A stretch of 64,000 nt of DNA, from positions 537-64,536 of IMG/VR virus record IMGVR_UViG_3300029906_000187. One strand, 5' to 3'. The position numbers and the translations under genes were made by a program. The notes below the pieces were generated by a model. That model ran no database searches. It saw only the letters and a program-made list of their open reading frames with translations, and was not told the DNA's origin. Origin of the DNA: a virus. This document shows, piece after piece, positions 3,141 through 63,353 of this stretch (positions are counted from its first letter, which is position 1; the number at the start of each line of letters is the position of its first letter).

Positions 3141-3411
3141 TTTCCATTCCTCCATCCATTTTCGATCCGCAATGTGGACAATATTCATAAGGTCTATCCC
3201 AAATCGCATAACAAACTGAACAACGATAATAGCCCGTAGCAAAAATGGAATCTTCACACGTTCCATGCCTGACTTCCTGCACATCAACGTCCGGCCGGCT
3301 TTCTATAAACGATTCGATCCAGTCTGCATTATAACAATTCAGAAGATATTTTTCTCCTCCGTTCAGTTCCTTGAAATCCTCTAACATTTTGTCAGCGTCA
3401 ATATATCGCAT
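3100..3411 (-). CDS. Phage zinc-ribbon hypothetical protein
   Basis: MRYIDAD...VRHG...CSVC...YCPHCGSKMDG; GAGGAG RBS upstream of ATG 3411. Confidence 0.7.
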   Translation of the reverse strand: MRYIDADKMLEDFKELNGGEKYLLNCYNADWIESFIESRPDVDVQEVRHGTCEDSIFATGYYRCSVCYAIWDRPYEYCPHCGSKMDGGMENEKRNDKHTPKVV

Positions 3412-10735: not shown

Positions 10736-11284
10736 ATGGCAAGAGCAATTGACGTTGCTAACTTCTTCATTGATGTAATCAATGGCTCCGAAGATGACAA
10801 TGTAACCAATCTCAAACTGCAAAAGCTGTTATACTTCTCCCAAGGCCTGTTCTTACGTAAGACCGGGAAACCGCTGTTCCCGGAAAAGATAAAAGCATGG
10901 AAGCACGGTCCGGTTGTACCAGAAGTGTATCACACGTTCAAGCAATATGAGGGAGCTCCTATATTAAAACCTTCCGGCGCATATTCATATGAGAGCTTTA
11001 CAAGCGATGAAAAAAATATTCTTTTTGATACGCTTCTTATATACGGAAAATATACCGGAAATGCCCTTGTAAATATGACGCACGCCCCAAATACACCTTG
11101 GAGCCAAGTTTATCAACAAAATTCTTCAGGGAAAGCCATCATTTCAAATGAGATTATCAAAGAATATTTTGATGGCCAACCTCAACCTTTGGATTTTGAC
11201 GCTATCATTGCTCGGATTCCAATTGTTGATAAACTTCCGAAAGAAGATTATGACCCAGAAGAAGACGCCCTTTGGGAGGAATAG
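10736..11284 (+). CDS. panA: Panacea-domain (DUF4065/SocA-like) antitoxin
   Basis: AIDVANFF...TNLKLQKLLYF...AWKHGPVVPEVY...TH...PW. Confidence 0.9.
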   Translation: MARAIDVANFFIDVINGSEDDNVTNLKLQKLLYFSQGLFLRKTGKPLFPEKIKAWKHGPVVPEVYHTFKQYEGAPILKPSGAYSYESFTSDEKNILFDTLLIYGKYTGNALVNMTHAPNTPWSQVYQQNSSGKAIISNEIIKEYFDGQPQPLDFDAIIARIPIVDKLPKEDYDPEEDALWEE

Positions 11285-11626
11285 ATGGCTATTATTTTCT
11301 ATGACAGATGGGATGTCTGTTTAGCAGATGTCCCATTTGAAGAAATTCCACAGTCTAAACGCCGTCCCGTGATTGTGTTGAATCATTCCACAATCCTTGA
11401 TTGCTTAAAAGCCACAAAATCTGCTCCGAGAGCGAATTATCCGGGAGAATATCAGCTTAAATTTTGGAAAGAAGCTGGGTTAAAAGTTCCGACGGTTGTA
11501 CGAGCCAGCAAAAGGCTTTCTCTTCCGATGTCAGCCGTTGGTCGCAAGCTCGGAACTTTACATATTCAAGACATAATAGAGCTCGAAAAAATACTTGAAA
11601 GACTTGGTGATATTATAACACTCTAA
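11285..11626 (+). CDS. PemK/MazF-like toxin
   Basis: DVCLADVPFEE...KRRPVIVL...AGLKVPTVVR; abuts panA. Confidence 0.75.
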   Translation: MAIIFYDRWDVCLADVPFEEIPQSKRRPVIVLNHSTILDCLKATKSAPRANYPGEYQLKFWKEAGLKVPTVVRASKRLSLPMSAVGRKLGTLHIQDIIELEKILERLGDIITL

Positions 11627-13118: not shown

Positions 13119-13339
13119 TCGGCTGTCTCCTCCTTCGGAAGATTCAGCAACAGGCGAACCGCCTCTGCGATTTCGCCGGAATATTTCGCGGCTCTCACGG
13201 CGCTCGCGAGGATGTCAACGATCAGCTCGTGGCGCAACAGCGCGTCATATCGTTCGAGGGGGACTTGCACGAATACTTCTCTTTCGGACGTCGCGAGCAA
13301 TTCCGCTTCAGGCAGCGAAAGAAATTCTATTTTAGACAT
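13115..13339 (-). CDS. Hypothetical protein
   Basis: MSKIEFLSL...; GGAGG RBS. Confidence 0.6.
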   Translation of the reverse strand: MSKIEFLSLPEAELLATSEREVFVQVPLERYDALLRHELIVDILASAVRAAKYSGEIAEAVRLLLNLPKEETAE

Positions 13340-14132
13340 CCGCCGGAACCTCCTCAAAATCCGCCGCAATCGGCTCCGCATCCGGCAGGAGCGCATCACT
13401 ATCCGCACCGTTTGATTTCAGGTCGTCATCCGACATCGCGTTTGCCATCTCCACGGAAAGCGGAGACCATTTGGAGAGAAGATTCCGAAGAACAGTTTTC
13501 TGTGCCATCTCATGGAAATTGTCCTTCCAAATTGGGTTCCCCTTTGCGTAGGATTTCGAGTATCGCGCGGCGTGCGCCATGACCTTTTCTTTGGACCAGT
13601 AAAGCGCTTTCTCAAAGCCGCTGACCGTCTGAATATATGCAAAATAGCCGATGATGTTATCCCCGGATCTCTCACCTGATAAATCCACTGAACCGGTCAG
13701 CTTGTCCACCGACTTCAGCTCCCCTTCATATACAACATCGGTATTGATGTAGCGGTATGCACCGGTTCTCTGCGCAAGCTGAAGCAGACCTTTGTAACCG
13801 ATAATGAATGTGGGGACATCGGCATATGGAATGATATACGCAAAGCCAAGCTGCTTATTGATTGGCAGCTTCAGGGACACTGCTTTGAGGCATTCGGCAA
13901 ATACCTTTCCGGGTTCGCATCTCTGTAGCAGTTTGTCAGTGCTGTAAAGGTCCAGCACCGAGGCAGCAAACGCACCGGCATTTTCTTTGAGCGAGTTTTC
14001 CAACAGTTTTTTTGTGGATTCCGCGTTCAGGATCGCGTTCATCATGGTTGCTGGGCTCTTTTTGACCGGAGCCTCCTTTTGTGCCTGCGCAGCGTTCGTA
14101 ATGGCATTTTCAGTATTCGTTGTTCTCGGCAT
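13332..14132 (-). CDS. recT: RecT-family single-strand annealing protein
   Basis: LGFAYIIPY...FIIGYKGLLQLAQRTG...MAQKTVLR; start revised. Confidence 0.9.
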   Translation of the reverse strand: MPRTTNTENAITNAAQAQKEAPVKKSPATMMNAILNAESTKKLLENSLKENAGAFAASVLDLYSTDKLLQRCEPGKVFAECLKAVSLKLPINKQLGFAYIIPYADVPTFIIGYKGLLQLAQRTGAYRYINTDVVYEGELKSVDKLTGSVDLSGERSGDNIIGYFAYIQTVSGFEKALYWSKEKVMAHAARYSKSYAKGNPIWKDNFHEMAQKTVLRNLLSKWSPLSVEMANAMSDDDLKSNGADSDALLPDAEPIAADFEEVPADV

Positions 14133-15078
14133 TGTCTTTCTCCTCCTTGATTCGGAAAATTCGTGTTTCGGAGGTTTTGCAAACCTCCTCATAGATTTTC
14201 GGATATTTTTCTTTCAGCATTTTGCGATCAATATCTACCCGTTTTTGCGGCTTCCAGGTGACGCGGTATTTTTCGGAAAATCCGACAGTAGCTTCCATCA
14301 TGTCGATCTGAATGCTCTGCCGGATTTCCTCCATACGCCTGTCAATTTGTTTTTTCTCAGCAGAGAGCTGCTGGTACTCTGCCAGATCTTCGTCATGTGT
14401 GTGGATGTAGATCGGAATATCCTCCGTACTTCCACCGCCGGAGAGCGCCTCAATCGCCATCCTTGCGGAGGCGGAGCCATCGGGCGGTGGCGGAACCTCT
14501 TTCTGCACGTGCTGCTCCCAGAAATCATTCTCTGCTTTTTCCAGCGCGGCAATTTCCGTCTCGCTGCGCTCCACTGTAAACCAGTAAAAGCCTTTGCCAA
14601 GTATCAGGACGGCGAGATACATCCGGTCATAGCCCATCACGGCCATATAGTGCATACACTGCACATAATAGGTCAACGGAACCTCTCCGTTCTCAAAGTC
14701 GGTCTTGTTGTAGGCATTGGTGGTTTTGCATTCCAAGCCTGCATTTTCTCCGACAATCTCACGGTCTACATCCGCAATCATGCAAGGATATTCGGAGGAG
14801 CGGTACATAAAGTTATTTTTCTTTACCCGTTTTCCGGTGGCTTCACAAAAACGGCTTGCCACATACTGTTCAAGGTCTCTGCCGGTGCGCATGAGCTCTG
14901 TATCCTCTTTATCCGGGAGCAGCCCCAGCTTGTCCGAATACAGTTCCAGCAGGCTCCGGAAAGGGTTCAGACCAAGCACAACAGCCGCATCCGATCCGCC
15001 GATTCCCTCCCGGCGGAACTCCAGCCATTCCTCCCTGCTGATCTTGCTGACATTCACAACCCGGATAGGATTCACCAT
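14110..15078 (-). CDS. YqaJ-like (lambda exonuclease family) viral recombinase
   Basis: EWLEFRREGIGGSD...ADVDR...LECKT...YYVQCMHY. Confidence 0.92.
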   Translation of the reverse strand: MVNPIRVVNVSKISREEWLEFRREGIGGSDAAVVLGLNPFRSLLELYSDKLGLLPDKEDTELMRTGRDLEQYVASRFCEATGKRVKKNNFMYRSSEYPCMIADVDREIVGENAGLECKTTNAYNKTDFENGEVPLTYYVQCMHYMAVMGYDRMYLAVLILGKGFYWFTVERSETEIAALEKAENDFWEQHVQKEVPPPPDGSASARMAIEALSGGGSTEDIPIYIHTHDEDLAEYQQLSAEKKQIDRRMEEIRQSIQIDMMEATVGFSEKYRVTWKPQKRVDIDRKMLKEKYPKIYEEVCKTSETRIFRIKEEKDNAENNEY

Positions 15079-15317
15079 ACCGCTCCATGTCCTCCTTTTC
15101 CGTGCGTTCTGTGATAGTTCAGCTCGCATGTGTATTTGCAGAACCATAGCCCCAAACTGCGGTCATGAAAGACATGGAACGGAGCGGCCACGAAGGTTTT
15201 TCCGCAGTTCGCGCACGTGTGCTCTGTAATATGAACTCCGGGAGGGCTATATTCCGGCTCGTCCAGCATGGCGTCAATCTCGTCCAGTTCCTCAATCGTC
15301 GCTTTTTCGTCCGTCAT
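15072..15317 (-). CDS. Zinc-ribbon hypothetical protein
   Basis: CANCGKTF...FCKYTC; start revised to MTDEK. Confidence 0.6.
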   Translation of the reverse strand: MTDEKATIEELDEIDAMLDEPEYSPPGVHITEHTCANCGKTFVAAPFHVFHDRSLGLWFCKYTCELNYHRTHGKGGHGAVW

Positions 15318-21576: not shown

Positions 21577-22713
21577 TCAGTTCAGCATTTCGATAATTCT
21601 GAATTTATCGCTATCATAAACATGCCCATATGTTTGTGTCACCTGCTCCACGGTATCGCCGATCAGATCGGCAACTACCATAAAGTTTGCGCCCAAATGG
21701 ATCAGCATAGATACAAACGAATGCCGAAGGTCATGCATTCTGATCCTTTTCACCCCGGCCTTTTTTATGTAAGATTCAAATGCGTGAGAAATCGTATTTT
21801 CGTGGATTGGTTTCTCTCCCCCAAAGAAAAATGGCATCTGACCTTGATACCGGGTAAGTTCATCCTTTAACGTCTGGCAAATGGGCGTCGCTCCGATTTT
21901 TTCGTTTTTGGATGTTGTGATTTTGTATGGCGAGCCGTCTATGGTCTTTCTCGTATAGGTCTTGTTGAAAATAATCTGGTTCTCCTGTACATCATCATAG
22001 TGGAGCGCCAGAACCTCCCCTCTGCGCCTCCCGGTAAAAAACAGCATGGTAAAGATTGTGTGATGTGTGGGGTTGTCCACAACCGCGATGAACTTCTCAA
22101 ATTCCTCTCTTGTCCAAATCTGCATTTTGGTTTTGGAAATGCGTTTTTTGGGCTTTGCAACCTCCTTCAGATGGTTCGGGTATCCATGGCGGCTTTCGCA
22201 CCATGACAAAAAAGCCCCGAAGTGCCCCCGTATCCTTTCCAGATACTCTGTCGAATAGCTTTTCCCTGTAGCCGGATTTTGGGATGACCACAGTTCATCC
22301 TGCCATTGGTACAGCCTCTCTTTTGTCAAGTCTGTTATTTTGCACTCTCCCAACATCGGAATGATGATTGAATTGTACAGTCGAATTTTCCCATATATTG
22401 AGCTGTCTTTATTCTGATTATGGAGAGATAAAATATATTTTGGTATGAGATCGGCTACTGTCGGAACCAATTTGATTGTTTCTTGAGATTTCTTTTTAAT
22501 GGGATTATTTTTCACCAGCGTACATTTATCGGTGATAAAGGTTGCATGAGCTTCTTTGGCAGCTTTTTTTGTTAAAAACCCGGATAATTTCTTTTGTATT
22601 TCCTTCCCATCCATTGTTACGATACGAAACACGACGTCATATACGGTGCCGTGCTTTTTTGTTTTTCGCTCTTGGATAGAGCATTTCGTTGACGAAATAT
22701 AGTACTCAACCAT
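21577..22713 (-). CDS. int: Tyrosine integrase
   Basis: FTGRRRGEVLAL, HDLRHSF, LIGDTVEQVTQTYGH; N-terminal arm-binding-like segment. Confidence 0.93.
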   Translation of the reverse strand: MVEYYISSTKCSIQERKTKKHGTVYDVVFRIVTMDGKEIQKKLSGFLTKKAAKEAHATFITDKCTLVKNNPIKKKSQETIKLVPTVADLIPKYILSLHNQNKDSSIYGKIRLYNSIIIPMLGECKITDLTKERLYQWQDELWSSQNPATGKSYSTEYLERIRGHFGAFLSWCESRHGYPNHLKEVAKPKKRISKTKMQIWTREEFEKFIAVVDNPTHHTIFTMLFFTGRRRGEVLALHYDDVQENQIIFNKTYTRKTIDGSPYKITTSKNEKIGATPICQTLKDELTRYQGQMPFFFGGEKPIHENTISHAFESYIKKAGVKRIRMHDLRHSFVSMLIHLGANFMVVADLIGDTVEQVTQTYGHVYDSDKFRIIEMLN

Positions 22714-52464: not shown

Positions 52465-54306
52465 TCAGAATCGTTTTCGCAAGGACAGCAGTCTTGCGCG
52501 CTCACCGGCAGATACCGGCCCCGATACGACTGCCGGATGTTTCTCGAAGGTTTCAATCGCCTCCGACCATGAGGATTTTGCCCGGTAGGTCTCCTTTACC
52601 AGAAGCTCCTCCAGCAGCGCAGCCAAGCGCAAGCCGTATTTGGCCGCCGACCACCGGTCGCGCTGAATCGCCGCACTTTTGCGCTTTTCCTTGAGAGAGA
52701 CGCCGCTGACCTCGGTTTTGAGGTTCTGAATCTCCTGGCACATACCCTCTGTCTGCTTATACGGCACGGCAATCTTTGCATCCTGAAAATCATCCTTGAT
52801 GCCATGGAACAGCTTATAGCTTTCTACGCCGTCCATGACATTGGCCGTCAGAATTTCCACATTTCCCTGCTCCCACTCCCGCCGTGCATAATCAATCATG
52901 GCGCCGTCCTCATCGGTTCCGCCACGCGTGTTCGCCTTCAGAGGATAGATCACGGGCAGAGCGTCAGGCTGTTCAATATCGGTATACGCCATATGCCTAT
53001 AGCAGCACAGGTTCGGAATGCCGTCGCCGGAAGGCTTCATCAGCTCCTGCACAACGGTTTTTCCCACCGAGCGCGCGTCCACCACAAGATAGGTGGTCTC
53101 TCCGCCGCTCATGCAGAACCGGTACCAGAGTGCCCGGATCATGGACGCCTGAATCGCTTCGGTCTTTGGCGGAGGATAGCTGTTTACCCACACCGCCTGT
53201 TTGAGGTATTTGTCACGCTTGGAGGGAGTGGAAAACCGCGTCAGCTTCCACACCACATCCGCACACTTCGCGTTTTTCTGCCCTTCCTCATAGCTGACGT
53301 CGTGTGCGACAATATAAATCACGTTCGGATCTCCGCAATGCCGATCCTCCATTGTCATGAGCTTTTTGCTGCGTGACAATATCTCGTCAGACAGCATGGG
53401 ATTGTCGCTGCTTCCCATGTATCTGGAGCACATCTCGCGCATCCAGTTCTCGGCTGAAAGCGACGCTTTCATTTTGCGGAAATAGCTGATGCTGCGGATT
53501 CCTCCGACCAGCGCAGATACCCAGGACATGTCAATCGCGTACCCCTCATACGGTTCCCCGTACAGCATATCCCGCAGCGCCTCATAGCGGTATTTGGTGT
53601 ATGCCCGGTTCTGCCGCGTGGAGGCGTTTGAGATGAATCCGGTTTTCAGATTGATATGCACCGGGTCTCGCTTCTGATTGACGTCCCGCTCAATCCGGCA
53701 GGTGGGCAAAATGTCCATCTCGAACTTCTCCATGTCAAAGGATTCCTTGCCTTCCTGCGCGGCTTCCTCCGCAATGACCTGCGAGCAGTTGTCTCCGCGC
53801 GGTGCATACATGGTGAACTCCGACCCGTAGTCGGTGGTAATCCGAAACATCCCCTCCCGGTCGTTGCGGCGGTGCCACATATCGGCCAGAATCGGGTAAT
53901 CCTTTTCGATCTGTTGGAACGTCTGCGCGGCCAGCTTTGCCGCCTGCTGCTGGGCGGGCGCGACATACCGCATAATCTCCCCCGGGAACAGAACCCCTTC
54001 AATCATCTTGGACAACAGCATGACATATGTTTTGGTCAGCCCGCGGCAGCCTGTGATATACACATTCCGGTATCGCGCGATCACCCGCATCATGATCCGC
54101 TGCGGAAATTCCAGCCGGTATCTTGCGTTCGGGCTGCGCAGCATATCCGCCAGATAGTCGGGATACCATCGGAAAAAGCTGATGAGCAGGCTGGCGGAAT
54201 CCCGGTTCACCGTGTCATAGTCAAAGGTTTTCTCTTTTTCGGCCTTCAGCCAGCGGCCTAACTTTTTTGAGTATCGCTTGCCTTCTCCTGCGTATCCGGT
54301 CGGCAT
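52465..54306 (-). CDS. Terminase large subunit
   Basis: GCRGLTKT Walker A-like, IAEEA Walker B-like, AHDVS, VDARSVG, DRWSA nuclease motifs. Confidence 0.9.
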   Translation of the reverse strand: MPTGYAGEGKRYSKKLGRWLKAEKEKTFDYDTVNRDSASLLISFFRWYPDYLADMLRSPNARYRLEFPQRIMMRVIARYRNVYITGCRGLTKTYVMLLSKMIEGVLFPGEIMRYVAPAQQQAAKLAAQTFQQIEKDYPILADMWHRRNDREGMFRITTDYGSEFTMYAPRGDNCSQVIAEEAAQEGKESFDMEKFEMDILPTCRIERDVNQKRDPVHINLKTGFISNASTRQNRAYTKYRYEALRDMLYGEPYEGYAIDMSWVSALVGGIRSISYFRKMKASLSAENWMREMCSRYMGSSDNPMLSDEILSRSKKLMTMEDRHCGDPNVIYIVAHDVSYEEGQKNAKCADVVWKLTRFSTPSKRDKYLKQAVWVNSYPPPKTEAIQASMIRALWYRFCMSGGETTYLVVDARSVGKTVVQELMKPSGDGIPNLCCYRHMAYTDIEQPDALPVIYPLKANTRGGTDEDGAMIDYARREWEQGNVEILTANVMDGVESYKLFHGIKDDFQDAKIAVPYKQTEGMCQEIQNLKTEVSGVSLKEKRKSAAIQRDRWSAAKYGLRLAALLEELLVKETYRAKSSWSEAIETFEKHPAVVSGPVSAGERARLLSLRKRF

Positions 54307-55361
54307 TTCGTTTCTCCTTCCGCCGGACGCAACGGCATCAACCCGGCGTATTTTCTGCGCTTTCTCTGGTCATCGGTTTCTATCCCGTCAAATTCTCCGT
54401 AGGTGTCCTCTACCATCAGCTCTTCGGGAAGCTCGTTGAGCATAAAAAGATCGGCATTTGCCCGCATGGAATTCATCATGTCCATAATGCTCTGATCCAC
54501 CACATCAATGGTTCCGTGGTACTTCGGCTTGCAGATAAAGTTCTTTTCCAACGCCTGTATGGTCTGCTCGCAGTTCAGCAGCTTTCCCTCCTCCATCACG
54601 CCGGCTTTTTCCATCGCGTCTACCAGCGCATCCAGTCGCAGCGCCTCAACCGGCTTTTCATCCTTCTTCCGCAATTGCTCCGAGGCCATAATGCTGTCAA
54701 TCGATTTCTGCACCTTGTCCAACCCATGTGCGTCTCCGATTGATTGCAGGTAGTCCATCGCCAGCGCCAGCTTGCACACCCGCCGCAGTGTCATTTCAAT
54801 CTGGTCAGTGATCGTCTGCCCCTTGTACTGCGATGTGCGCGCTTCATACGCACGATCCAGTTCATCGTATACCTGCGTGCTGACGTCAAACCCTTTCCAT
54901 ATCGGCATTGTCCCCCACTTGGTTCTCTGCTCCTCCGTCCCCGGCAGCTTCGCCATACGTTCCCGCTCCACACGGCAATACCTCGAAAAATCCTTTTCGG
55001 TCAGCTCCTTGCCGAATATACGGAAAAGCATCGTCACTCCGTCCTTAAAGCCTGTCAGCTCCCCGTTCTCTTTGGCATATTTCCCACTGTCGTACAGCGC
55101 CTCATTGTACCAGCTCCACCGACTGTCCCGGTACGCAAACCCATCTGTCCCAAAATCTTCAGGAATCAGCAGTGGCTCAAGGCGCACATTGAATTTGGCA
55201 CAGGCCATCCACAACGCAATCGAATATCCGTTGCTCTCGGCAAACTCCATGTATATCCTGTCCTCGCACTCCACGCAATAGCGGCTGATCCCGTCCGCAC
55301 GCTCATAGCTGTTTTCTTCGGTCAGCTCTATTCCGCATTTCGCACATCGCCTCTCTTCCAT
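54258..55361 (-). CDS. Terminase small subunit-like protein with zinc ribbons
   Basis: CAKCG/CVEC N-terminus; immediately upstream of TerL; start set by GGAGG spacing. Confidence 0.55.
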   Translation of the reverse strand: MEERRCAKCGIELTEENSYERADGISRYCVECEDRIYMEFAESNGYSIALWMACAKFNVRLEPLLIPEDFGTDGFAYRDSRWSWYNEALYDSGKYAKENGELTGFKDGVTMLFRIFGKELTEKDFSRYCRVERERMAKLPGTEEQRTKWGTMPIWKGFDVSTQVYDELDRAYEARTSQYKGQTITDQIEMTLRRVCKLALAMDYLQSIGDAHGLDKVQKSIDSIMASEQLRKKDEKPVEALRLDALVDAMEKAGVMEEGKLLNCEQTIQALEKNFICKPKYHGTIDVVDQSIMDMMNSMRANADLFMLNELPEELMVEDTYGEFDGIETDDQRKRRKYAGLMPLRPAEGETKCRPDTQEKASDTQKS

Positions 55362-55407
55362 CTGCATTACCTCCAGCCCTTCTCAACACCCCAATTGCTC
55401 CCAAACG

Positions 55408-55439
55408 AAAAAAGGAGCCAAACTCCTCGCTTGGCTCCT
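55408..55439 (-). terminator. Intrinsic terminator upstream of the late operon
   Basis: AGGAGCCAA/TTGGCTCCT stem + T6 on the minus strand. Confidence 0.85.
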
Positions 55440-55670
55440 AATGGTTCTATTTTCTACTTGATACCAAAAAGATGGTACAGTTATCCCATAGCAGCTCTGC
55501 GAGCTTTTTACGGGCCTCTAACTGGACCATCTTCTTTTTATCCGGGCTTTATTTTTTGATTCCTACCGCATTCCACATTGCGCCTCTTTGTGAGGCTTTA
55601 CGTTTAGTGGTTCTAAATTGGACTTATAGTAGTATTTTCACCCAGATTTACCACATTATTCTATTTTTCA
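55408..55670 (-). ncRNA. Candidate ~260-nt structured leader RNA/sRNA
   Basis: Promoter upstream, no ORF, stems 55468-55483/55519-55533, GCCTC/GAGGC and AGCTC/GAGCT, then a terminator. Confidence 0.5.
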
Positions 55671-55675
55671 CACAC

Positions 55676-55704
55676 ATTATACCACAATATATGGGCGTTG
55701 TCAA
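55676..55704 (-). promoter_or_regulatory. SigA promoter facing the late operon
   Basis: TTGACA-17-TATAAT, extended TG. Confidence 0.85.
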
Positions 55705-55789
55705 TACCTTTTCTACAAAATGTTGTTTTTTGGGAAGTAGGTTGGGGGGAGTTGTGCTAACCGGGTTTTCCGTTTCGTTCCAGGTCTTC

Positions 55790-56330
55790 CGGTCGAAAAC
55801 CTACCCCCCCGGCGCCACTCCGAACCAATACCGGGAGCCATCCGGGGAGGGTGTGCCGTTCTATCTGTTAAGATAATTTATTATTATCACAACAAATAAA
55901 GCCCCTTGCCGCTTCGCTCTGATGTCTCCGGCTCTCGGCCTGCGCTATGCTCTTGTGCTGCCCTGCTCTGGCTCTCGTCTCCCGTTTCCGCTCTGCTCCT
56001 TTATATATCGTTTGCATTCATAGGCCAGCGGCAGAACATGCCGCCGGGGAAAAGACCTATATATCTATAAATAAAAACAGATTAACCATAAATACACATA
56101 TAGAGGTAAAATATATATAAATAATAGGGATCTATATTTATATCATAAAAAACATGTATAAATGGCTTATATATATAAATGGCATATATTGCCAATAAAT
56201 ACCGATAATATATATATTTCAATTATAAAGTACCAATAAAGCAATAAAATATATATATAACGTGGCATGCAGTCAATCGATTGCATAATATAATATATAA
56301 AAGCAATAATAAAGAAACGCGCGGCGGTCG
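55790..56330. other. Candidate packaging (cos/pac) region
   Basis: C7 run and GGGGAGGG upstream of the terminase genes, then a pyrimidine-rich block and a very AT-rich (TA)n-like block; gene-free. Confidence 0.35.
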
Positions 56331-56832
56331 GTGAGGTTACAGACGGGGACGGCGGCCGGGCGTGCGTGGCGCCTTCCGGCCTTTGGCCTTCCGGCTTTTT
56401 GGCTTTCGGTTCCGGAGTTGGTCGGTGTCGGCGTCGGTGTTGCGTTGGTTTTGTGCGGCTGTCTGCCGAAACGGTCGGGGGCTGCGGTACTCGGTCAAGA
56501 CGTCCGGAAGGCTTGCCGGGCGTCTGGTATGTGTCGCGGGTTTTCGTGTTGCGCGTGGCTTTCGAGCTTTTGCAATGTCTCCGGCTGCGCGCCTGGGTTT
56601 GCGGTGCGGGTTCTCTGCTTTTGTGCGATCATACAAAAATACATCAAAAAAAGCATTTCAGAAAATTTTTTTATTTTTCTACAGCCGCGCCGGGCGGTAT
56701 TTCCGGCGGGAAACAACAAAAAAGCCGCCGCTTTTCCCTGCGCGCCTTGTAGGGCGTTTTTGGGGGTTCTGCGGCGGTCTATCATTGTTAGATCGGATTT
56801 TGTCTATTGTGATTTTGCACAAATCACCCGGT

Positions 56833-56861
56833 TTGCAAATGCCTTGATTTTGTGGTATAAT
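56833..56861 (+). promoter_or_regulatory. SigA promoter
   Basis: TTGCAA-17-TATAAT with TG. Confidence 0.75.
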
Positions 56862-57025
56862 ATAAACAACCAGAAGGGGGCGCCCCTTCCGCGTGGCCGA
56901 TGACGCGTAGAGTACACCGGCGGGCAAGATTGGCGACCCGATCCCGTCAATCAGTTTTGAGGCGTAGCTATTAAACGCCATCCCAGCCGAAAGGCAAAAG
57001 GCGGAGAGAAAGGAGAACGCAAAAA

Positions 57026-57166
57026 ATGACAGATTACAACGAAGAGGAGCGCGAAGAAGTGACCGCGACGGAAGCAATCTTGCAAACTGTCAAAGAGCTT
57101 GCGGACAAATGCAAAACGCTTGACGAGTTCCGCGAAGCACTGGCGCGAATTATCGCCCAGAAATAA
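57026..57166 (+). CDS. 46-aa acidic peptide (not in ORF track)
   Basis: AAGGAG RBS; MTDYNEEEREEVTATEAILQTVKELADKCKTLDEFREALARIIAQK. Confidence 0.7.
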   Translation: MTDYNEEEREEVTATEAILQTVKELADKCKTLDEFREALARIIAQK

Positions 57167-57305
57167 AAAACAGCGTTAGCCGTTGACCCCTGAACAAGTC
57201 CGGCTAACGCCAACAAAAAGAGCAACCAACACAACAAGGGCGGAATGCTCCGCGCCGTCCTTGTGGTTGCTCTCCTATTGTACCACAAACGGCGGAAAAA
57301 GTCAA
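57165..57305 (-). ncRNA. Candidate ~105-nt antisense RNA with its promoter and terminator
   Basis: Minus TTGACT (57305-57300)-17-TACAAT (57282-57277); GCGTTAGCCG/CGGCTAACGC stem + T-run. Confidence 0.55.
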
Positions 57306-57339
57306 TAGATTTCAAAAAAATAATAGGAGAAAACAAAAA

Positions 57340-57945
57340 ATGACACACAAAATCAATATTTATGCATTTGCCGAACAGTTCAAAAAGGAATACCAATTTT
57401 TGTATCATCATGACAACGTCCCCGGCTATGATGAGGCATTGGAACAGTTCGACGCATTCGCGGCCGAAAATCCGGATTTTGTCCGGGAATTTGTAAACTT
57501 TCGCGGCGATTATATCAGCAGCGACAGAGAGGCTGCGGCTTTCGCCTTTGCTCTGGAGGCGGTGGAAGTTGAACAGAAACCAGAATATCAGGCGGAAAAG
57601 ATGGGGGAATATTTGACGCGCTACCGTTTCGAAAATCCGAACCGGAACGGGGAGCGCCTGGCCGTGGATGTTGTGGAATGCCGGCCCGATTTGAAAGACA
57701 AAAACAGCCTGCCGAACCTGTGGAAAAAATACGGGTATACTTCCGATGTGCTGGAAAATTTCTATTCGGTCACCACCTACGCGACCGACGCCGCCGGGAA
57801 TTGCCGGGGCAGATACAACCCGCAGCACAGGCCAGGGCCGGACGGCGGCCGCCCTGTAATTGATTTCTCGTGGCTGCTGCCGGTATCGGCGGAAAATCTC
57901 GAAAAGCTCTTGACTGAATGCCGCCGGCTGTTTTCGGAAGGATAA
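57340..57945 (+). CDS. Hypothetical protein
   Basis: 201 aa; AGGAG RBS. Confidence 0.75.
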   Translation: MTHKINIYAFAEQFKKEYQFLYHHDNVPGYDEALEQFDAFAAENPDFVREFVNFRGDYISSDREAAAFAFALEAVEVEQKPEYQAEKMGEYLTRYRFENPNRNGERLAVDVVECRPDLKDKNSLPNLWKKYGYTSDVLENFYSVTTYATDAAGNCRGRYNPQHRPGPDGGRPVIDFSWLLPVSAENLEKLLTECRRLFSEG

Positions 57946-58014
57946 AAAAACCATACCGCCGGGCGGTGGCAGCCCGCCCAGCGGTAAAAGAAAAAGAGAA
58001 AAGAGGAAAAGACA

Positions 58015-58830
58015 ATGACATACACCATTACAAAAAATGCAGATTTCGGCAGCATTGAAATTCATTTTGACGGCAAGCCCGCGCAGGCGGTGCGGGATGC
58101 CCTGAAGGCGCTAAAATTCCGGTGGCATGGCGTGCGCCGGGTATGGTACGGATACGCGGACGCGCAGGCCGTGCAAGAGGTGATCGGAAAGACCGCAGCC
58201 AGGGCAGCGCAGCCGGCAGACGGAACAGAACAGGCACAGGCCGCAAAGCCGGGGGCGGAACAGAACGAACAGGAACAGCTAAAATCCGAATATCTGCAAA
58301 TATTGGCCGGTTCAGTCTGGAAAAATTCGCCGGATATGATCGAGTACGAAAAAAAGAATCTGGCACGGGTGATCCGTCTTTCCGATGGTCGACTTTTTGG
58401 AATCGAAAAGCCCAGAATTAAAAAAGATTTTTGCTTTGGCTACGGCTGCCAATCTGGTTTTGACAATCAAAAAGAAGCGGAAACGGCAGCGGAGCACGCG
58501 AAAAGTGCGGAGTATTTCAAACAAGAAAATTTGCGCGATTTTAACCCGTTCGAAAACGACCTTACAAGGAATTTCGGCACGCTATACGCCGTCGAAAGAT
58601 ACAAAGGCACGCCCGAAATCGTGTACATCCGGCACATCAGCATTTCCCAATTGTACCGCATGAGCGAGCAAGAAAAAGTCGGCTATCGCGAATTGTCCGA
58701 CGCAGATATTGCGGCCATCCGTGCCGGATATGAAACGGAAAAAACGACTTTCGAAAAACGGCTTGACGCCTACCTGAAAAGATACGGCACAAGCAAATTG
58801 CATTCATGGGCATATTGGGCCGACGTTTGA
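58015..58830 (+). CDS. Hypothetical protein (N-terminus resembles polyvalent-protein-associated domains)
   Basis: FDGKP...VRDALKALKFRW...WYG. Confidence 0.7.
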   Translation: MTYTITKNADFGSIEIHFDGKPAQAVRDALKALKFRWHGVRRVWYGYADAQAVQEVIGKTAARAAQPADGTEQAQAAKPGAEQNEQEQLKSEYLQILAGSVWKNSPDMIEYEKKNLARVIRLSDGRLFGIEKPRIKKDFCFGYGCQSGFDNQKEAETAAEHAKSAEYFKQENLRDFNPFENDLTRNFGTLYAVERYKGTPEIVYIRHISISQLYRMSEQEKVGYRELSDADIAAIRAGYETEKTTFEKRLDAYLKRYGTSKLHSWAYWADV

Positions 58831-58914
58831 ACCAACAGCGCGGGCGGCCATGCGCCGCCCGCGCAAAGAACAGCCCAGCGGGGCGGGCAAAAGCCCCGCA
58901 GAAAGGAAAAGAAA

Positions 58915-59487
58915 ATGAATCAATTACAATTAACCGAAAAGCAGGGTGCGCAGATTGCCGCCCTGCGGGATAAAGGGCTTGCTTTAATGTTTGAAGTAGA
59001 GGCGCGCCGCAATGCATGGGAAGCCGCAGAGCAGCGCGAAAAAGCCGTTGAACAGGCTGCAATCATGGCAAGGATTTTTACTTACGCCGATGACTGCGAT
59101 GGCAAGGACGGCAACAGAAAAGGAACGCGCATAACCGATGCAGGCGATGCGTGGCACATGTGCGAAGAAGTTTTCATGCGGGAATATCTCCCCATCGTGA
59201 AAGCGAAATGGCGCGAGCTTTACGGGCTGGAATATCCGTTGGACTATTCCCCCACTTTCACGGAATACCGCCGCCCCTATCTGGACACGCAAAAGGAATA
59301 CCGCAAAATTGCTGTGCGTTTTCTTCGCATTGTTGGATGCGACAAAGAAGCGGACGAAATGGAAAAGGCCTTGAACGGGTATATGCGCGAGAGTTTGGCG
59401 CAGCAACTGGACGAATTGAACAAGCGATTGATTATCGGATATGACAAGCTGGTAGAAAAGGCGCTGGCGGAACAGAAAAACGCCTGA
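58915..59487 (+). CDS. Hypothetical protein
   Basis: 190 aa; AAGGA RBS. Confidence 0.75.
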   Translation: MNQLQLTEKQGAQIAALRDKGLALMFEVEARRNAWEAAEQREKAVEQAAIMARIFTYADDCDGKDGNRKGTRITDAGDAWHMCEEVFMREYLPIVKAKWRELYGLEYPLDYSPTFTEYRRPYLDTQKEYRKIAVRFLRIVGCDKEADEMEKALNGYMRESLAQQLDELNKRLIIGYDKLVEKALAEQKNA

Positions 59488-59552
59488 ACAGAACGGAGCA
59501 GGGGCGGAACGCCCGCCTCTCCCCTGTCTTTGAACAGAAACAGGAGGACGAA

Positions 59553-59741
59553 ATGACAAAAGCAATTTACTTTGAAACATACGGCGGCAAGGACTACTTC
59601 CGCGACGAGTACGGGAACATTTACACGATCTGCGACGGAAAGCCGACCTTTTGCAGCAACTTGAAGCGCGGAAGCCTGACGGACGACAAGGCAGAACCAG
59701 CCTACCCCGTCGATGACGTGGAACTAATATATAACGCCTGA
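59553..59741 (+). CDS. Hypothetical protein
   Basis: 62 aa; AGGAGG RBS. Confidence 0.75.
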   Translation: MTKAIYFETYGGKDYFRDEYGNIYTICDGKPTFCSNLKRGSLTDDKAEPAYPVDDVELIYNA

Positions 59742-59805
59742 ACAGAAACAGCCGGAAGCGAGGGCAGCGCCTGCCGCCCGCGTATTTCCCACAGGAGGAC
59801 ACACC

Positions 59806-60015
59806 ATGAAAGAAAGCATAAACCACGAAAAAGAGATTGCGGCGATCCGCTACGCACTGACACTGAACAGTCAATGCGCCGCGCTGTTCGAGCTACCGGG
59901 GCTGATGTACAACCAGTGCAAGCTGGACGACCTGACGAGACGGCGGCCGCTGCGGATGTCATTTGATTTCTGCAAAAAGACGGTTGCGGAACTGGCGGCG
60001 GCCGGGAAGCTCTGA
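59806..60015 (+). CDS. Hypothetical protein
   Basis: 69 aa; AGGAGG RBS. Confidence 0.7.
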   Translation: MKESINHEKEIAAIRYALTLNSQCAALFELPGLMYNQCKLDDLTRRRPLRMSFDFCKKTVAELAAAGKL

Positions 60016-60105
60016 AGAAAACACATCTTACAAGCCGGGCGGCCATATGCGCCGCCCGGAGTTTAAGCGGCTGAACAAATGCGGAACAGAAAGGAAGAAA
60101 AAAGC

Positions 60106-60384
60106 ATGAACAGGAAACAAAATGAACGGCTATTAACTGTCAGAAATGAGCTGAACAGCGTGCAAAGTATCGAGGACTTGGAGCGCATCGGCTTGAAAGA
60201 TATGTTTGAGTGGCAGCAGGCGCAGGATACCCTTACCCTGTATTTGAAAAATGGGGAAGGCGTGGGAAGCAGTACCTTCAACAAGAATGTTGCGGAGCTA
60301 TTCCGACAGCACGGATTCACCATTAAAGCCGTTACTTTCAAGAGTCGCGGAATGAAAGGATACCTCATTGATCCAACAGAATGA
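60106..60384 (+). CDS. Hypothetical protein
   Basis: Start revised to MNRKQNE. Confidence 0.7.
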   Translation: MNRKQNERLLTVRNELNSVQSIEDLERIGLKDMFEWQQAQDTLTLYLKNGEGVGSSTFNKNVAELFRQHGFTIKAVTFKSRGMKGYLIDPTE

Positions 60385-60435
60385 ACACATGCCAAAGACC
60401 TCTCCCATTAGGCGGAACAGACGAAAGGAGCAACG

Positions 60436-61377
60436 ATGAACACAACAGAATATGAACAGGCAGCAGATCAGTATCTCGCTGCCCTGCCCTCTATGAAGAA
60501 ATCACAGAACACTATCCGCATGTATCGGCACATCCTGAACAGATATGCGGACTTCCTGCGCAATGAACAGAACCGCGGTACCACACCGCTTTCGGTGGTC
60601 GGCTGGCGCGTTTCCCTGTTTGATGAAGATCTTTCCGCAAACAGCGTCCGCTATTATATGACCGTCCTGCACGGCTTTTTTGAATGGGCGGTAAGAATGC
60701 ACATGTGCCCGGAAAATCCCGTAGATACGGCGGAAATCCCGGAACAGAAGGACGTCGCTTATAATTTGCTGACTTTAGATGAGATCAAACAACTTTTCCA
60801 ACAACAGCCCCATGGCTTGAACACCAAAACCATGCCAAGAAACCGCGCGATCATTTTCCTGCTGCTGCAGGCCGGGATGCGGAACAGCGAGCTCCGCAAT
60901 CTCCGCCTATGTGACCTGAACTTTGAACAGAACACTATCACGATACGGCATGGCAAAGGAGATAAGCGCCGGGAGATCGCCTTCCCACAGCTTGCACAGA
61001 GCGCCGTGAAGGCATATCTGGCAAGTGGGACGCGCCCTGCATGGGTAGATGATACCGCGCCTCTGTTTGGCTCTGACGCAGACCGGAACGGCCACAGCAC
61101 GGGCGGAACAGAATGGCATCCGCTGTCCTCTGCTGCTCTGCTTGGCATCGTCAACCGATATGTAGAGAGCTGCACCGGCCATAAAGGAATCAAGGTTCAC
61201 GCGCTCCGACATGCGGCGGCATCTCTCTGGGACGATATGGGCATCCCCATGCGCACAATCCAGACCGTATTGGGACACGCCAGCATCCGAACCACTGAAC
61301 AGATCTATGTAAAAATTCTGGACAAATCCAAGGCCGCGCAGAAGGTCAATCAGGCGTTTGAAAGCCTTTCCATGTAA
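60436..61377 (+). CDS. XerC/D-like tyrosine recombinase
   Basis: AGMRNSEL (R), GKGDK (K), HALRH, LGHASIRTTEQIY (Y); SAM-like N-terminal domain, no arm domain. Confidence 0.93.
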   Translation: MNTTEYEQAADQYLAALPSMKKSQNTIRMYRHILNRYADFLRNEQNRGTTPLSVVGWRVSLFDEDLSANSVRYYMTVLHGFFEWAVRMHMCPENPVDTAEIPEQKDVAYNLLTLDEIKQLFQQQPHGLNTKTMPRNRAIIFLLLQAGMRNSELRNLRLCDLNFEQNTITIRHGKGDKRREIAFPQLAQSAVKAYLASGTRPAWVDDTAPLFGSDADRNGHSTGGTEWHPLSSAALLGIVNRYVESCTGHKGIKVHALRHAAASLWDDMGIPMRTIQTVLGHASIRTTEQIYVKILDKSKAAQKVNQAFESLSM

Positions 61378-61606: not shown

Positions 61607-62230
61607 ATGGGAATTAAATTGATTGATTTGCTATTTCAAAAAACAAAGGGCAGAAGCAAGTATTTTTACAACATTATGCCAATAGACAATATTCCATCTG
61701 TGGTCAAGCACGGAATTTTGAGCTATAATTGCGCTATGCGCATACAACATTCTTCCATTGCGATGAATGAAGTTCAAGAACGTCGGGAAAAAGTGATTAT
61801 ACCAAATGGGCGGCCGCTTCACCAATATGCAAATTTATACTTTACATATCACAACCCGATGATGTACAAAAGGCGTAAGGTTGCGAATACAATTTGCTTA
61901 TTGGTAATTCATCCGAGCATTATCGAAACAGAAAATTGTATTTTGTCTGATCGGAACGCAGCAACAAATATGGTTAAATTTTATACGCCATATGAAGGTG
62001 TGAATCATATTGATTTTGATCTTGTCTTTGCTCAAAGTTGGACTGATGATGATCCATATATAGCCTCCAATAAAAAGGCAATTAAATGTGCTGAAATTTT
62101 AATTCCTGACTGTATCCCATTTAACTATATAGTTGGAGCAATTGTATTAAATGAAGAAGTAAAGGATAGGCTCATTGAACTTGGTTTTTCACGTGAAATT
62201 CTTATCCGGCCGAAAATGTTTTTCAATTAG
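61607..62230 (+). CDS. darT: DarT (DUF4433) ssDNA ADP-ribosyltransferase toxin
   Basis: IDNIPSVVKHGILS, YANLYF...NPMMY, SDRNAA, CAEILIP (catalytic Glu); start revised to ATG 61607. Confidence 0.9.
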   Translation: MGIKLIDLLFQKTKGRSKYFYNIMPIDNIPSVVKHGILSYNCAMRIQHSSIAMNEVQERREKVIIPNGRPLHQYANLYFTYHNPMMYKRRKVANTICLLVIHPSIIETENCILSDRNAATNMVKFYTPYEGVNHIDFDLVFAQSWTDDDPYIASNKKAIKCAEILIPDCIPFNYIVGAIVLNEEVKDRLIELGFSREILIRPKMFFN

Positions 62231-62243
62231 GGAGGAATGTGAA

Positions 62244-63353
62244 ATGGTGATTAAAATAGGCAATATATTTGAATCAAGCGCAAAAACGCTTGTGAACACC
62301 GTGAATTGCGTTGGAATCATGGGAAAAGGAATCGCACTTGAATTTAAAAATAGGTATCCAAAAATGTTTTCTGAATATGTTAAGTTGTGTAAGAATGGGA
62401 AAGTAATACCTGGAGTGCCATATTTTTATCAAGACCTTTCCGGAATTTCCATCATCAACTTTCCAACTAAAAATCATTGGCGCTCCCCCTCGCAACTCTC
62501 CTATATCATTTCCGGACTGGATTGGTTTAGAAATAACTACCAAACATACAATATTGAATCCGTAGCATTCCCTCCGCTTGGTTGTGGAAACGGCGGACTA
62601 AGTTGGGAGACAGTCGGTCCTATTATGTATTCAAAGCTAAATGATTTACCAATTCAAATTGAAATATATGCACCATATGGTGCCGCACCTCAACAAATTA
62701 CAGAACAATTTTTAAGAAACAGTGTTGCCAATAAAACAAACATCATAGGGGAACAGAAAAAGAAAATTAATAAGAACTGGCTATTGATTCTGGAAATCAT
62801 CAAAAGATTAAATCAAGATAAATACTCCCTAAATGTTGGTCGAACTATATTTCAAAAAGTTTGTTACTTGTTGACCAGAACCGGTGTACAAACCGGATTT
62901 CATTTCAGCGAAGGGCAGTATGGACCGTATTCTGTTGAGGTCAAACAAGCACTTGAATCTCTTTCCAATGCAAATCTTATGACAGAACGAAGGCTTGGAA
63001 ATATGGTTGAAACGATTGTATCTCCTTCATTTCAATTGGACATTCGCAATTATTCTTCTCAAGAATTGACATGTGTGCAAGCAACATACGATCTTTTGAG
63101 CCGAATCCAAAGTACTGACCAAGCTGAAATGATCGCAACTGTATTATTCTCCTATGATGAACTACTCAAAAAAAATAAATCTGTTACAGAGAAGCAAATT
63201 TTTGAGCATGTTCTTCATTGGAAGAACCATTGGAAAGGTACAAAAGAATCCGAAATCGTTTCAACAATTAAAAGTTTGTCTATGTTAGGATGGATGAAAC
63301 CGGATAGCAGCCATGATACGATGGGTCAACCTGACGATGATTGGTTATATTAA
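62244..63353 (+). CDS. darG: DarG macrodomain antitoxin
   Basis: TLVNTVNCVGIMGKGIALEFK, INFPTKNHW, PPLGCGNGGL; start revised. Confidence 0.93.
   Translation: MVIKIGNIFESSAKTLVNTVNCVGIMGKGIALEFKNRYPKMFSEYVKLCKNGKVIPGVPYFYQDLSGISIINFPTKNHWRSPSQLSYIISGLDWFRNNYQTYNIESVAFPPLGCGNGGLSWETVGPIMYSKLNDLPIQIEIYAPYGAAPQQITEQFLRNSVANKTNIIGEQKKKINKNWLLILEIIKRLNQDKYSLNVGRTIFQKVCYLLTRTGVQTGFHFSEGQYGPYSVEVKQALESLSNANLMTERRLGNMVETIVSPSFQLDIRNYSSQELTCVQATYDLLSRIQSTDQAEMIATVLFSYDELLKKNKSVTEKQIFEHVLHWKNHWKGTKESEIVSTIKSLSMLGWMKPDSSHDTMGQPDDDWLY

What the first reader, a model, noticed from the sequence alone, without database searches (positions are those of the whole stretch)
57340..61377. Cassette-like array of small genes separated by related GC hairpins, ending in a second tyrosine recombinase
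Seen: six co-oriented hypothetical genes with their own RBSs. The spacers hold related stems: GGGCGG/CCGCCC at 57955-57985; GCGCGGGCGGC-CATGC-GCCGCCCGCGC at 58838-58864; CCGGGCGGC-CATATGC-GCCGCCCGG at 60035-60059; looser versions at 59499-59526 and about 59757-59781. None has a U-tract. Two genes end in the identical 15-mer AACGCCTGAACAGAA (59479, 59733), and GAACAGA recurs in the spacers. An intact Xer-like recombinase follows. Known: integrons shuffle single-gene cassettes at folded ssDNA hairpins using a tyrosine recombinase, although these hairpins do not look like canonical attC. Inference: a phage-borne cassette-shuffling locus for anti-defence genes. Alternatively the hairpins are RNA processing/stability or ssDNA-promoter elements and the recombinase resolves dimers.
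Basis: partly seen in the sequence, partly recalled or inferred. Interest (0 to 1): 0.66.

Follow-up and report, generated by a model that had tools for sequence, protein, structure and literature searches.

The report
Phage genome-end operon with circularising recombinase
The gene array is not an integron: it is the variable early operon at one predicted end of a gut-Clostridia phage genome, and its recombinase most likely closes the injected DNA into a circle at a single nearby site, while the whole operon carries a dense one-way six-letter tag (GAACAG) whose reader is unknown.

Summary
The genes, three good hairpins, the 15-mer and the intact recombinase are real. Relatives gain and lose genes here; one two-gene loss joins exactly in two hairpin arms. 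It is still not an integron: no attC, no IntI insertion, 12 other junctions use 12 different 6-25-nt microhomologies (half at RBSs), most relatives' spacers are too short for hairpins, and related phages encode RecE/RecT.

The array reads inward from the predicted genome end: a C-tract like those in mapped terminal repeats of Sundance, Kirov and Thrax lies at 55796. Seventy bases inside it is a single-copy 11-7-11 dif/lox-like palindrome (55866-55894), top-ranked in 11 of 12 related genomes or loci and absent from 150 host-order genomes. The recombinase, a phage-only clade, most likely cyclises the genome there, as Cre does at loxP (inferred, untested).

The oddest feature is GAACAG: 260 sense versus 5 antisense copies in seven phages, starting after the promoter, with 81% versus 26% of Glu-Gln pairs so coded. 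Hosts show no Chi-like enrichment or RNase-type avoidance. The scan noted this motif before on other DNA (e1-3852164); the link to the genome end and the recombination site is new here.

The parts
55796..55810 (+). C-tract (AAAACCTACCCCCCC), marker of the predicted genome terminus; by analogy the right end lies about 40 nt to its left (about 55755) and the direct terminal repeat spans about 55755-56050 (inferred)
   Evidence: Same tract, same orientation, about 41 nt inside the mapped repeats of Sundance, Kirov and Thrax4; found 1.2-3.3 kb before the first GAACAG in 11 relatives; the five-C form occurs twice in this genome. Terminase is YonF-like.
55866..55894 (.). 11-7-11 palindrome TGTT-N3-ATAA-[7]-TTAT-N3-AACA: candidate recombination site of the recombinase, inside the predicted terminal repeat
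   Evidence: Leave-one-out PWM rank 1 in 11 of 12 genomes/loci, single copy, 23-127 nt from the C-tract; arms co-vary, spacer free; in hosts only inside the prophages, 0 of 150 other genomes.
56050..56310 (.). AT-rich low-complexity block, followed by a GT-rich non-coding block to about 56800; same layout in relatives
56833..56861 (+). Sigma-A type promoter with extended -10 that heads the operon
   Evidence: same position in relatives
57026..57166 (+). 46-aa leader ORF; similar 40-50-aa ORFs head the operon in several relatives
57165..57305 (-). Antisense promoter (57305-57277) and predicted ~110-nt two-hairpin antisense RNA ending in a T-run; possible attenuator of the operon
   Evidence: z -6.0; no Rfam match
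57340..57945 (+). ORF1, 201 aa, unknown; two domains found separately in relatives; absent from L061
57954..57986 (+). GC hairpin 1 (terminator-like on the - strand)
58015..58830 (+). ORF2, 271 aa; its N-terminal ~60-80 aa recur in most related operons, fused to LPD29-type or other domains
58838..58865 (+). GC hairpin 2; its 3' arm is the left junction of the ORF3+ORF4 indel
58915..59487 (+). ORF3, 190 aa, unknown (weak Nmad5 lead, score 0.76); its 3' end matches the end of another gene in L061
59499..59526 (+). Weak hairpin 3; absent in L061
59553..59741 (+). ORF4, 62 aa, unknown
59757..59785 (+). Loose hairpin 4; its 3' arm (59773-59784) is the right junction of the indel
59806..60015 (+). 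ORF5, 69 aa, unknown
60035..60059 (+). GC hairpin 5
60106..60384 (+). ORF6, 92 aa from the RBS-bearing ATG; replaced by other genes in L051 and L061
60436..61377 (+). Xer-sized tyrosine recombinase of a phage-specific clade, catalytic residues intact
57373..61302 (+). Zone of 27 sense-strand GAACAG copies (6.9 per kb; 1 antisense), in all three frames and in spacers
61607..63353 (+). DarT-DarG pair in a variable slot behind the recombinase (RloB+AAA in L051, other AAA genes in L061); low GC, almost untagged

Best explanation
This is the accessory early operon of a temperate gut-Clostridia phage with an SPbeta (YonF)-type terminase. (1) Position, inferred: it starts about 1.1 kb inside the predicted right genome end (last packaged, first ejected) and reads inward, so its genes would be the first expressed. 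(2) Recombinase, inferred: it is not a cassette shuffler. It binds the single 11-7-11 palindrome inside the ~300-bp terminal repeat and joins the two end copies to circularise the injected DNA, as P1 Cre does at loxP; it may also resolve dimers. (3) Gene turnover, shown as a pattern: genes are swapped at whatever short word repeats between gene junctions (RBS, start codon, hairpin arm); RecE/RecT-type annealing is the inferred agent. The hairpins are RNA elements (mRNA stabilisers on the sense strand, terminators for antisense transcription) that also give GC-rich microhomology. (4) GAACAG: shown to be a selected, sense-strand, operon-wide tag. My best guess is that it is read on the transcript or by a factor acting on elongating polymerase, to shut this operon off in the lysogen or after the early phase. 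Odds: RNA tag for a sequence-specific RNase or RNA-binding protein 0.35, stoperator-like polar roadblock 0.25, DNA-end signal 0.15, other 0.25.
For: Complete 65.4-kb circular record with integrase, RecE/RecT, portal and terminase. C-tract matches mapped repeats; two relatives share a 16-nt word with the Sundance repeat; Sundance also has ~37 small genes reading inward from its right repeat. Site, C-tract, operon and recombinase move as one block: beside terS here, between tail and integrase in G001-G005. Site: rank 1 in 11 of 12, scores 15-33 vs host maximum 13.3; arm complementarity 119/143 vs 98.6 expected, spacer differs even among close relatives; absent from 150 host-order genomes; among 61 searched, the one with the recombinase is the one with the site; not at the att junction (335 nt inside attR in L424; 33 kb from int here). 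In G010, with an unrelated terminase, the site lies between terS and terL. A site-first scan gave 22 of 86 hits with a C-tract (8% by chance), and the 10 GAACAG-dense ones all on the predicted side. Junctions: 12 different microhomologies, 6 RBS-like, none GAACAG. GAACAG: 260 vs 5; Glu-Gln pairs 113/139 vs 105/403, p 1e-30; under 1 per kb in the first kb after the site, 5-7 per kb after the promoter; positions differ between clades. Precedent: SPbeta/phi3T mRNAs are enriched in MazF sites (10.1101/2023.04.27.537455).
Against: No read data: the terminus is placed by analogy with terminases only 24-27% identical, and contig ends did not cluster there. No binding or recombination test. The recombinase gene lies 4.5-13 kb from the site and is transcribed last. 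Site picking used a palindrome term, which inflates the covariation test. The site in MT835520 ranks only 9th and the one in G008 is near background and not beside a terminase. Loci were mostly found through the recombinase, and many are near-copies. For an RNA tag: host ribosomal-protein genes do not avoid GAACAG (30 vs 29.6) although they avoid the MazF word TACAT (23 vs 47), and no RNase gene is shared by all tagged phages.
Confidence: 0.6

Rival explanations
1. Integron-like cassette array: the recombinase excises and inserts single genes at folded single-stranded hairpins.
For: ORF3+ORF4 indel joins in two hairpin arms; the arm and downstream leader travel with the downstream gene in three genomes; recombinase always at or near a variable operon; IntI4 is among the top structural matches.
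Against: No attC box pair; TIGR02249 score 90 vs cut-off 265, no IntI insertion, separate clade; 40 of 58 spacers in five relatives are under 30 nt; 12 other junctions at unrelated words; shared genes keep their order in the three close genomes; in clade C the recombinase lies 5 kb from the variable zone.
Confidence: 0.06
2. Same site and enzyme, but used only to resolve dimers of the circular replicating or plasmid-like genome; end joining is done by RecE/RecT through the terminal repeat.
For: dif-like arms; closest solved relatives are XerA/XerC/XerD; RecE/RecT conserved; Tyrovirus Xer genes were proposed for plasmid-stage resolution (PMC9703825).
Against: A resolution site could lie anywhere, yet it stays 23-127 nt from the terminus marker, and beside terS in a phage with another terminase; these phages have an integrase and are found integrated.
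Confidence: 0.15
3. The palindrome is a terminase nicking or binding site (cosN-like) and the recombinase has another, unseen target.
For: It lies at the predicted end; conserved arms with a variable core also describe cos sites (own knowledge).
Against: Characterised YonF-type phages have direct repeats, not cohesive ends (PMC9703825), and their repeats do not match the PWM; the site is kept in G010, which has a different terminase but the same recombinase clade.
Confidence: 0.08
4. The recombinase-fold protein is an MrpR-like repressor that coats the GAACAG array and silences the operon.
For: SPbeta MrpR precedent (PMC10516654); Sundance has an Int-fold protein without catalytic residues at the end of its terminal array; the motif lies within the gene itself here.
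Against: All catalytic residues invariant in 43 homologues; clade members without a motif zone (L077-L080, L423) and clade C with the motif 5 kb away from the gene; motif flanks do not resemble the site arms.
Confidence: 0.06
5. GAACAG is a DNA signal for a host motor entering from the genome end (Chi for AddAB, or KOPS for FtsK).
For: Strict orientation; zone lies at the predicted first-entering end; same word across phages only 30-50% alike, which suggests a host reader.
Against: Nearly absent from the first 1-1.5 kb, mostly free non-coding DNA; neither strand over-represented or skewed in host DNA; zone ends where co-oriented genes end.
Confidence: 0.15

Closest known systems
P1 Cre/loxP cyclisation (own knowledge; no paper found in the library)
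   Same: Phage-coded tyrosine recombinase without an arm-binding domain; one palindromic site placed where terminal redundancy duplicates it; core free to vary because the site only meets its own copy.
   Different: 11-7-11 site with dif-like arms rather than 13-8-13; predicted short fixed repeat rather than headful redundancy (except G010); gene sits at the end of a variable early operon; different clade.
XerC/XerD/XerA-dif systems and Tyrovirus Xer-like recombinases (PMC9703825)
   Same: Size, fold, catalytic residues; inner ATAA/TTAT arms; Kirov and Thrax repeats carry a dif-like ATAA-N6-TTAT beside the C-tract.
   Different: Below XerC/XerD/XerA cut-offs; own clade (98/96); 7-nt spacer; site not found in host chromosomes.
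PeSL modular shuffling in T4-type phages (PMC2839356)
   Same: Non-essential small genes gained, lost and replaced by recombination between short repeated intergenic elements that include stem-loops.
   Different: No promoter in each spacer; hairpins lack sense-strand U-tracts; junction words vary; temperate Clostridia phage.
Integrons (IntI/attI/attC)
   Same: Co-oriented small genes, hairpins in spacers, tyrosine recombinase next door.
   Different: No attC boxes, no IntI insertion, recombinase co-oriented and downstream, no fixed crossover.
MazF-site enrichment in SPbeta/phi3T transcripts (10.1101/2023.04.27.537455; 10.64898/2026.08.06.743204)
   Same: Related terminase lineage; exact 6-nt word with an ACA core at 4 or more per kb on the sense strand.
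   Different: Word is GAACAG, not UACAUA; confined to one operon; host ribosomal-protein genes do not avoid it; no enzyme identified.
Mycobacteriophage L5 stoperators (PMC9283540) and SPbeta MrpR/SPBRE (PMC10516654)
   Same: Many asymmetric sites oriented with transcription in a temperate phage.
   Different: 6 nt instead of 13-15; mostly inside genes; nearly the same word across distant phages, whereas immunity sites diversify.

Membership tests
Integron | Integrase of the IntI clade with the IntI-specific insertion | tested here: not met
   TIGR02249 90 bits vs 265; GKG to HxxRH 81 residues vs 106 in two IntI; separate clade
Integron | attC sites with R'' (RYYYAAC) and R' (GTTRRRY) boxes after each gene | tested here: not met
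   0 pairs on either strand; no Rfam match
Integron | Fixed crossover point at cassette boundaries | tested here: not met
   12 exact junctions, 12 different words of 6-25 nt
Integron | Variable gene content between relatives | tested here: met
Tyrosine recombinase superfamily | R-K-H-R-H-Y catalytic set and core-binding plus catalytic fold | tested here: met
XerC/XerD/XerA/XerS | Score over the family cut-off and placement in the Xer clade | tested here: not met
   XerC 146 vs 335, XerD 140 vs 330, XerA 145 vs 220, XerS 77 vs 267; tree
XerC/XerD-dif | 11-6-11 site present in the host chromosome | tested here: not met
   spacer is 7 nt; 0 of 150 other genomes of the order
Cre/loxP-like cyclase (works like) | Single palindromic site in DNA duplicated at the virion ends | tested here: inconclusive
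   single copy and beside the terminus marker; ends not mapped, contig ends uninformative
Cre/loxP-like cyclase (works like) | Recombinase recombines the site and circularises the genome | not testable with these tools
   needs an assay
PeSL | Repeated promoter plus terminator stem-loop cassette between genes | tested here: not met
   one head promoter, no strong sense promoters in spacers, no sense U-tracts
PeSL | Indel junctions within the repeated intergenic element | tested here: met
   hairpin arm, RBS words
MrpR-type repressor | Int fold with catalytic residues lost | tested here: not met
   contrast Sundance gp157
Chi / KOPS | Over-represented and leading-strand skewed in the host chromosome | tested here: not met
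   205 vs 178 in 400 kb of Flintibacter, rank 957 of 4092; true host not known
Host MazF-type cleavage site | Avoided in host ribosomal-protein genes | tested here: not met
   GAACAG 30 vs 29.6; positive control TACAT 23 vs 47
Stoperator | Asymmetric sites oriented with transcription | tested here: met
   260 vs 5
Stoperator | Bound by the phage repressor, blocks elongation | not testable with these tools
   needs an assay

The most novel reading that the evidence does not exclude
A widespread group of gut-Clostridia phages has a portable genome-end module: terminal repeat with a private 11-7-11 recombination site, a dedicated cyclising recombinase of an undescribed clade, and a first-ejected operon whose DNA or RNA is tagged every ~150-200 nt with one oriented hexamer read by an undescribed regulator that switches the operon off as a unit.
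Probability: 0.35. Interest if true: 0.8.

Novelty: new variant of a known kind. Interest (0 to 1): 0.6.

Why it matters
How phages with short terminal repeats circularise after injection is mostly assumed, and the extra Xer-like genes of SPbeta-like phages have no assigned job (PMC9703825 says so). Here a recombinase clade comes with a precise candidate site, which makes the question testable with one plasmid assay and may supply a new recombinase-site pair with a freely variable 7-nt core. The site and C-tract also predict genome ends, and so the first-expressed genes, for many uncultured gut phages; those genes are a short list for anti-defence screens. The GAACAG tag is a strong signal of selection with no known reader.

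Tried and rejected
Hairpin pattern scan of viral contigs gave single scattered matches, not followed further. Single-protein scans with the recombinase and terminase found nothing; the alignment did. Triple-GAACAG scan was mostly chance (4 of 118 dense, none matching known proteins). Rfam: nothing. Pfam, NCBIfam, PHROGs and the Atlas gave no function for ORF1-6; Nmad5 for ORF3 is a lead only; no plasmid hits for ORF2. ORF2 C-domain relatives (L001-L010) lack both the motif zone and this recombinase. Contig ends as evidence of the terminus: inconclusive. GAACAG as recombination hotspot: none of 12 exact junctions, though a few looser ones touch it. Host Chi/KOPS, host RNase site, host dif, host regulator box: not supported. 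Seed pairing by the antisense RNA loop: fits this genome but the loop is not conserved. A shared phage PemK/MazF as reader: only G000 and G009 of nine phage records have one. LexA half-site: would not be strand-locked. Primase site, BREX or type III site, 16S rRNA look-alike: considered from memory, no test supports them. Sundance gp157 is only distantly related and its repeat is a promoter-like intergenic element, not GAACAG. Kirov's end has no GAACAG zone. Literature search for the motif found nothing.


Full report
CONTEXT. The window is almost all of a 65.5-kb record whose ends overlap by 137 nt, so a complete circularised phage genome. It has an integrase (21577-22713), RecE and RecT (13332-15147), a portal, a large terminase and a reverse transcriptase. 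Relatives lie in Christensenellaceae and other Clostridia assemblies. The array is on the + strand, against the late genes, and diverges from the small terminase gene.

OBSERVATION. Two spacers fold far better than shuffles (z -4.6, -5.5), one modestly (-2.0), two weakly, and the last not at all. The recombinase is intact: six catalytic residues are invariant in 43 homologues and the model has a Xer/Cre fold, pLDDT 90.

GENE TURNOVER. L051 is 97% identical over 54000-58865 but lacks ORF3 and ORF4; the join is in the 3' arms of hairpins 2 and 4, which share GCCGCCCGCG. L061 has another gene before ORF3 and re-assorts the same arm, which stays with the downstream leader. In other clades, 12 exactly resolved indels use 12 different microhomologies of 6-25 nt, six of them RBS-like, and 40 of 58 spacers in five relatives are shorter than 30 nt. 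There is no attC box pair. The recombinase lacks the IntI insertion and falls in a 28-row phage clade (98/96) apart from IntI and host Xer proteins. RecE and RecT are present in 9 of the 12 genomes compared. Short-homology recombination explains the pattern (inference; the role of Rad52-like enzymes in phage mosaicism is the subject of PMC3945230, seen as an abstract only). It works like PeSL shuffling (PMC2839356) without being a PeSL array.

GENOME END. The terminase is YonF-like, nearest named relatives Sundance, E3, Kirov and Tsamsa. Tsamsa and Thrax have mapped 284-285-bp direct repeats and Sundance 323 bp (PMC9703825). Each repeat has a C-tract about 41 nt inside the right end. The same tract lies at 55796 here and 1.2-3.3 kb before the motif zone in 11 relatives, in the same orientation; two of them share a 16-nt word with Sundance. 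In G001-G005 the tract, operon and recombinase lie between tail genes and integrase, far from the terminase, so the block moved as a unit in this lineage. Sundance itself has about 37 small genes reading inward from its right repeat. I infer that the array is the last-packaged, first-ejected operon. This rests on analogy; contig ends did not confirm it.

THE RECOMBINASE SITE. Seventy bases past the tract is TGTTAAGATAA-TTTATTA-TTATCACAACA (55866-55894). A matching 11-7-11 palindrome lies 23-127 nt from the tract in 11 of 12 genomes or loci and ranks first by leave-one-out scoring (15-33 bits; host maximum 13.3 in 400 kb). Arms are complementary at 119 of 143 positions against 98.6 for shuffled pairs, while the core differs even between close relatives (selection used a palindrome term, so the figure is generous). 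It occurs in host assemblies only inside the prophages and in none of 150 other genomes of the order, so it is neither host dif nor a regulator box. It is not att: it lies 335 nt inside the tmRNA junction in L424 and 33 kb from the integrase here. In G010, which has an unrelated terminase but the same recombinase clade, the best site lies between terS and terL. A scan that started from the site found a C-tract beside 22 of 86 hits (8% by chance); the ten with a dense GAACAG zone had it on the predicted side (many are near-copies). Fixed arms, a free core and a position in duplicated DNA are what a site that recombines only with its own second copy should show. Cyclisation of the injected genome is my reading; dimer resolution is the main alternative. 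Neither is shown.

THE GAACAG TAG. There are 27 sense and 1 antisense copies here, about 2 expected; 21 are in coding sequence against 9.3 +/- 2.3 under codon shuffling. Seven phages give 260 versus 5; 81% of Glu-Gln pairs in the zone are GAA-CAG against 26% outside (p 1e-30), with no such shift for Glu-Lys; GAACGG is a weaker variant, 3.4-fold. One clade uses TAAACAG. Positions within the recombinase gene differ between clades, so density is kept, not sites. Recently arrived low-GC genes are poorly tagged. The zone starts after the promoter, not at the predicted end, and stops where co-oriented genes stop. Some clade members have no zone. Host DNA shows no over-representation or skew, and ribosomal-protein genes do not avoid the word although they avoid the MazF word. 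No shared phage gene stands out as reader. The nearest precedents are MazF-site enrichment in SPbeta and phi3T transcripts (10.1101/2023.04.27.537455; strict 6-mer in 10.64898/2026.08.06.743204) and L5 stoperators (PMC9283540). I found the motif; the scan had noted it earlier on another genome (e1-3852164), which is not independent support.

CARGO. ORF1-6 have no assignable function. Relatives carry DNA-methyltransferase-like, LPD29-like, HicB-like and YopX genes in the same operon. An establishment or anti-defence role fits the position but is untested.

VERDICT. Observation partly confirmed; integron reading rejected; turnover at hairpin arms real but incidental. The value lies in a recombinase clade with a precise candidate site at the predicted genome end, and in an unexplained oriented tag. 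New variant of a known kind; interest 0.6.

Noticed in passing
window 57165-57305 (-): Antisense promoter and two-hairpin RNA candidate after the leader ORF, conserved in L061, L144, L424 and G001; possible attenuator of the operon; no Rfam match.
   Followed up: partly
window 56865-57020: Structured ~150-nt leader between the promoter and the 46-aa ORF, well conserved in L061; absent from more distant relatives.
   Followed up: no
window 61607-63353: DarTG pair in a swappable defence slot; L051 has RloB plus an AAA ATPase there, L061 other AAA genes.
   Followed up: partly
window 10736-11626: A likely Panacea-type antitoxin gene (from memory of the motif, not tested) followed by a PemK/MazF-family gene (PF02452, E 4e-9); not shared by most relatives.
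   Followed up: partly
L418:228-262 and L446:228-262 (Kirov, Thrax4 terminal repeats): A dif-like ATAA-N6-TTAT site abuts the C-tract inside the mapped repeats of Tyroviruses; the section of PMC9703825 that I read does not mention it.
   Followed up: no
L447 (Sundance right end): About 19 strand-locked intergenic copies of a promoter-like element containing TACATTA ahead of the terminal small genes, and an Int-fold gp157 lacking catalytic residues (MrpR-like).
   Followed up: partly
window 5990-6240 (-): A 15-nt tandem repeat in a coding region gives 16 more GAACAG copies on the - strand; a repeat-protein effect, excluded from the analysis.
   Followed up: no
window 2511-3287 (-): Probable ASCH-domain gene shared by 8 of 12 genomes; a possible RNA-binding candidate, not tested.
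   Followed up: no
L424:2370-2745: A relative is integrated at the 3' end of tmRNA with the operon at the prophage end.
   Followed up: partly
L568-L573 (host ribosomal-protein operons): TACAT is avoided about two-fold in Clostridia ribosomal-protein genes, as expected if their MazF keeps the UACAU specificity.
   Followed up: partly
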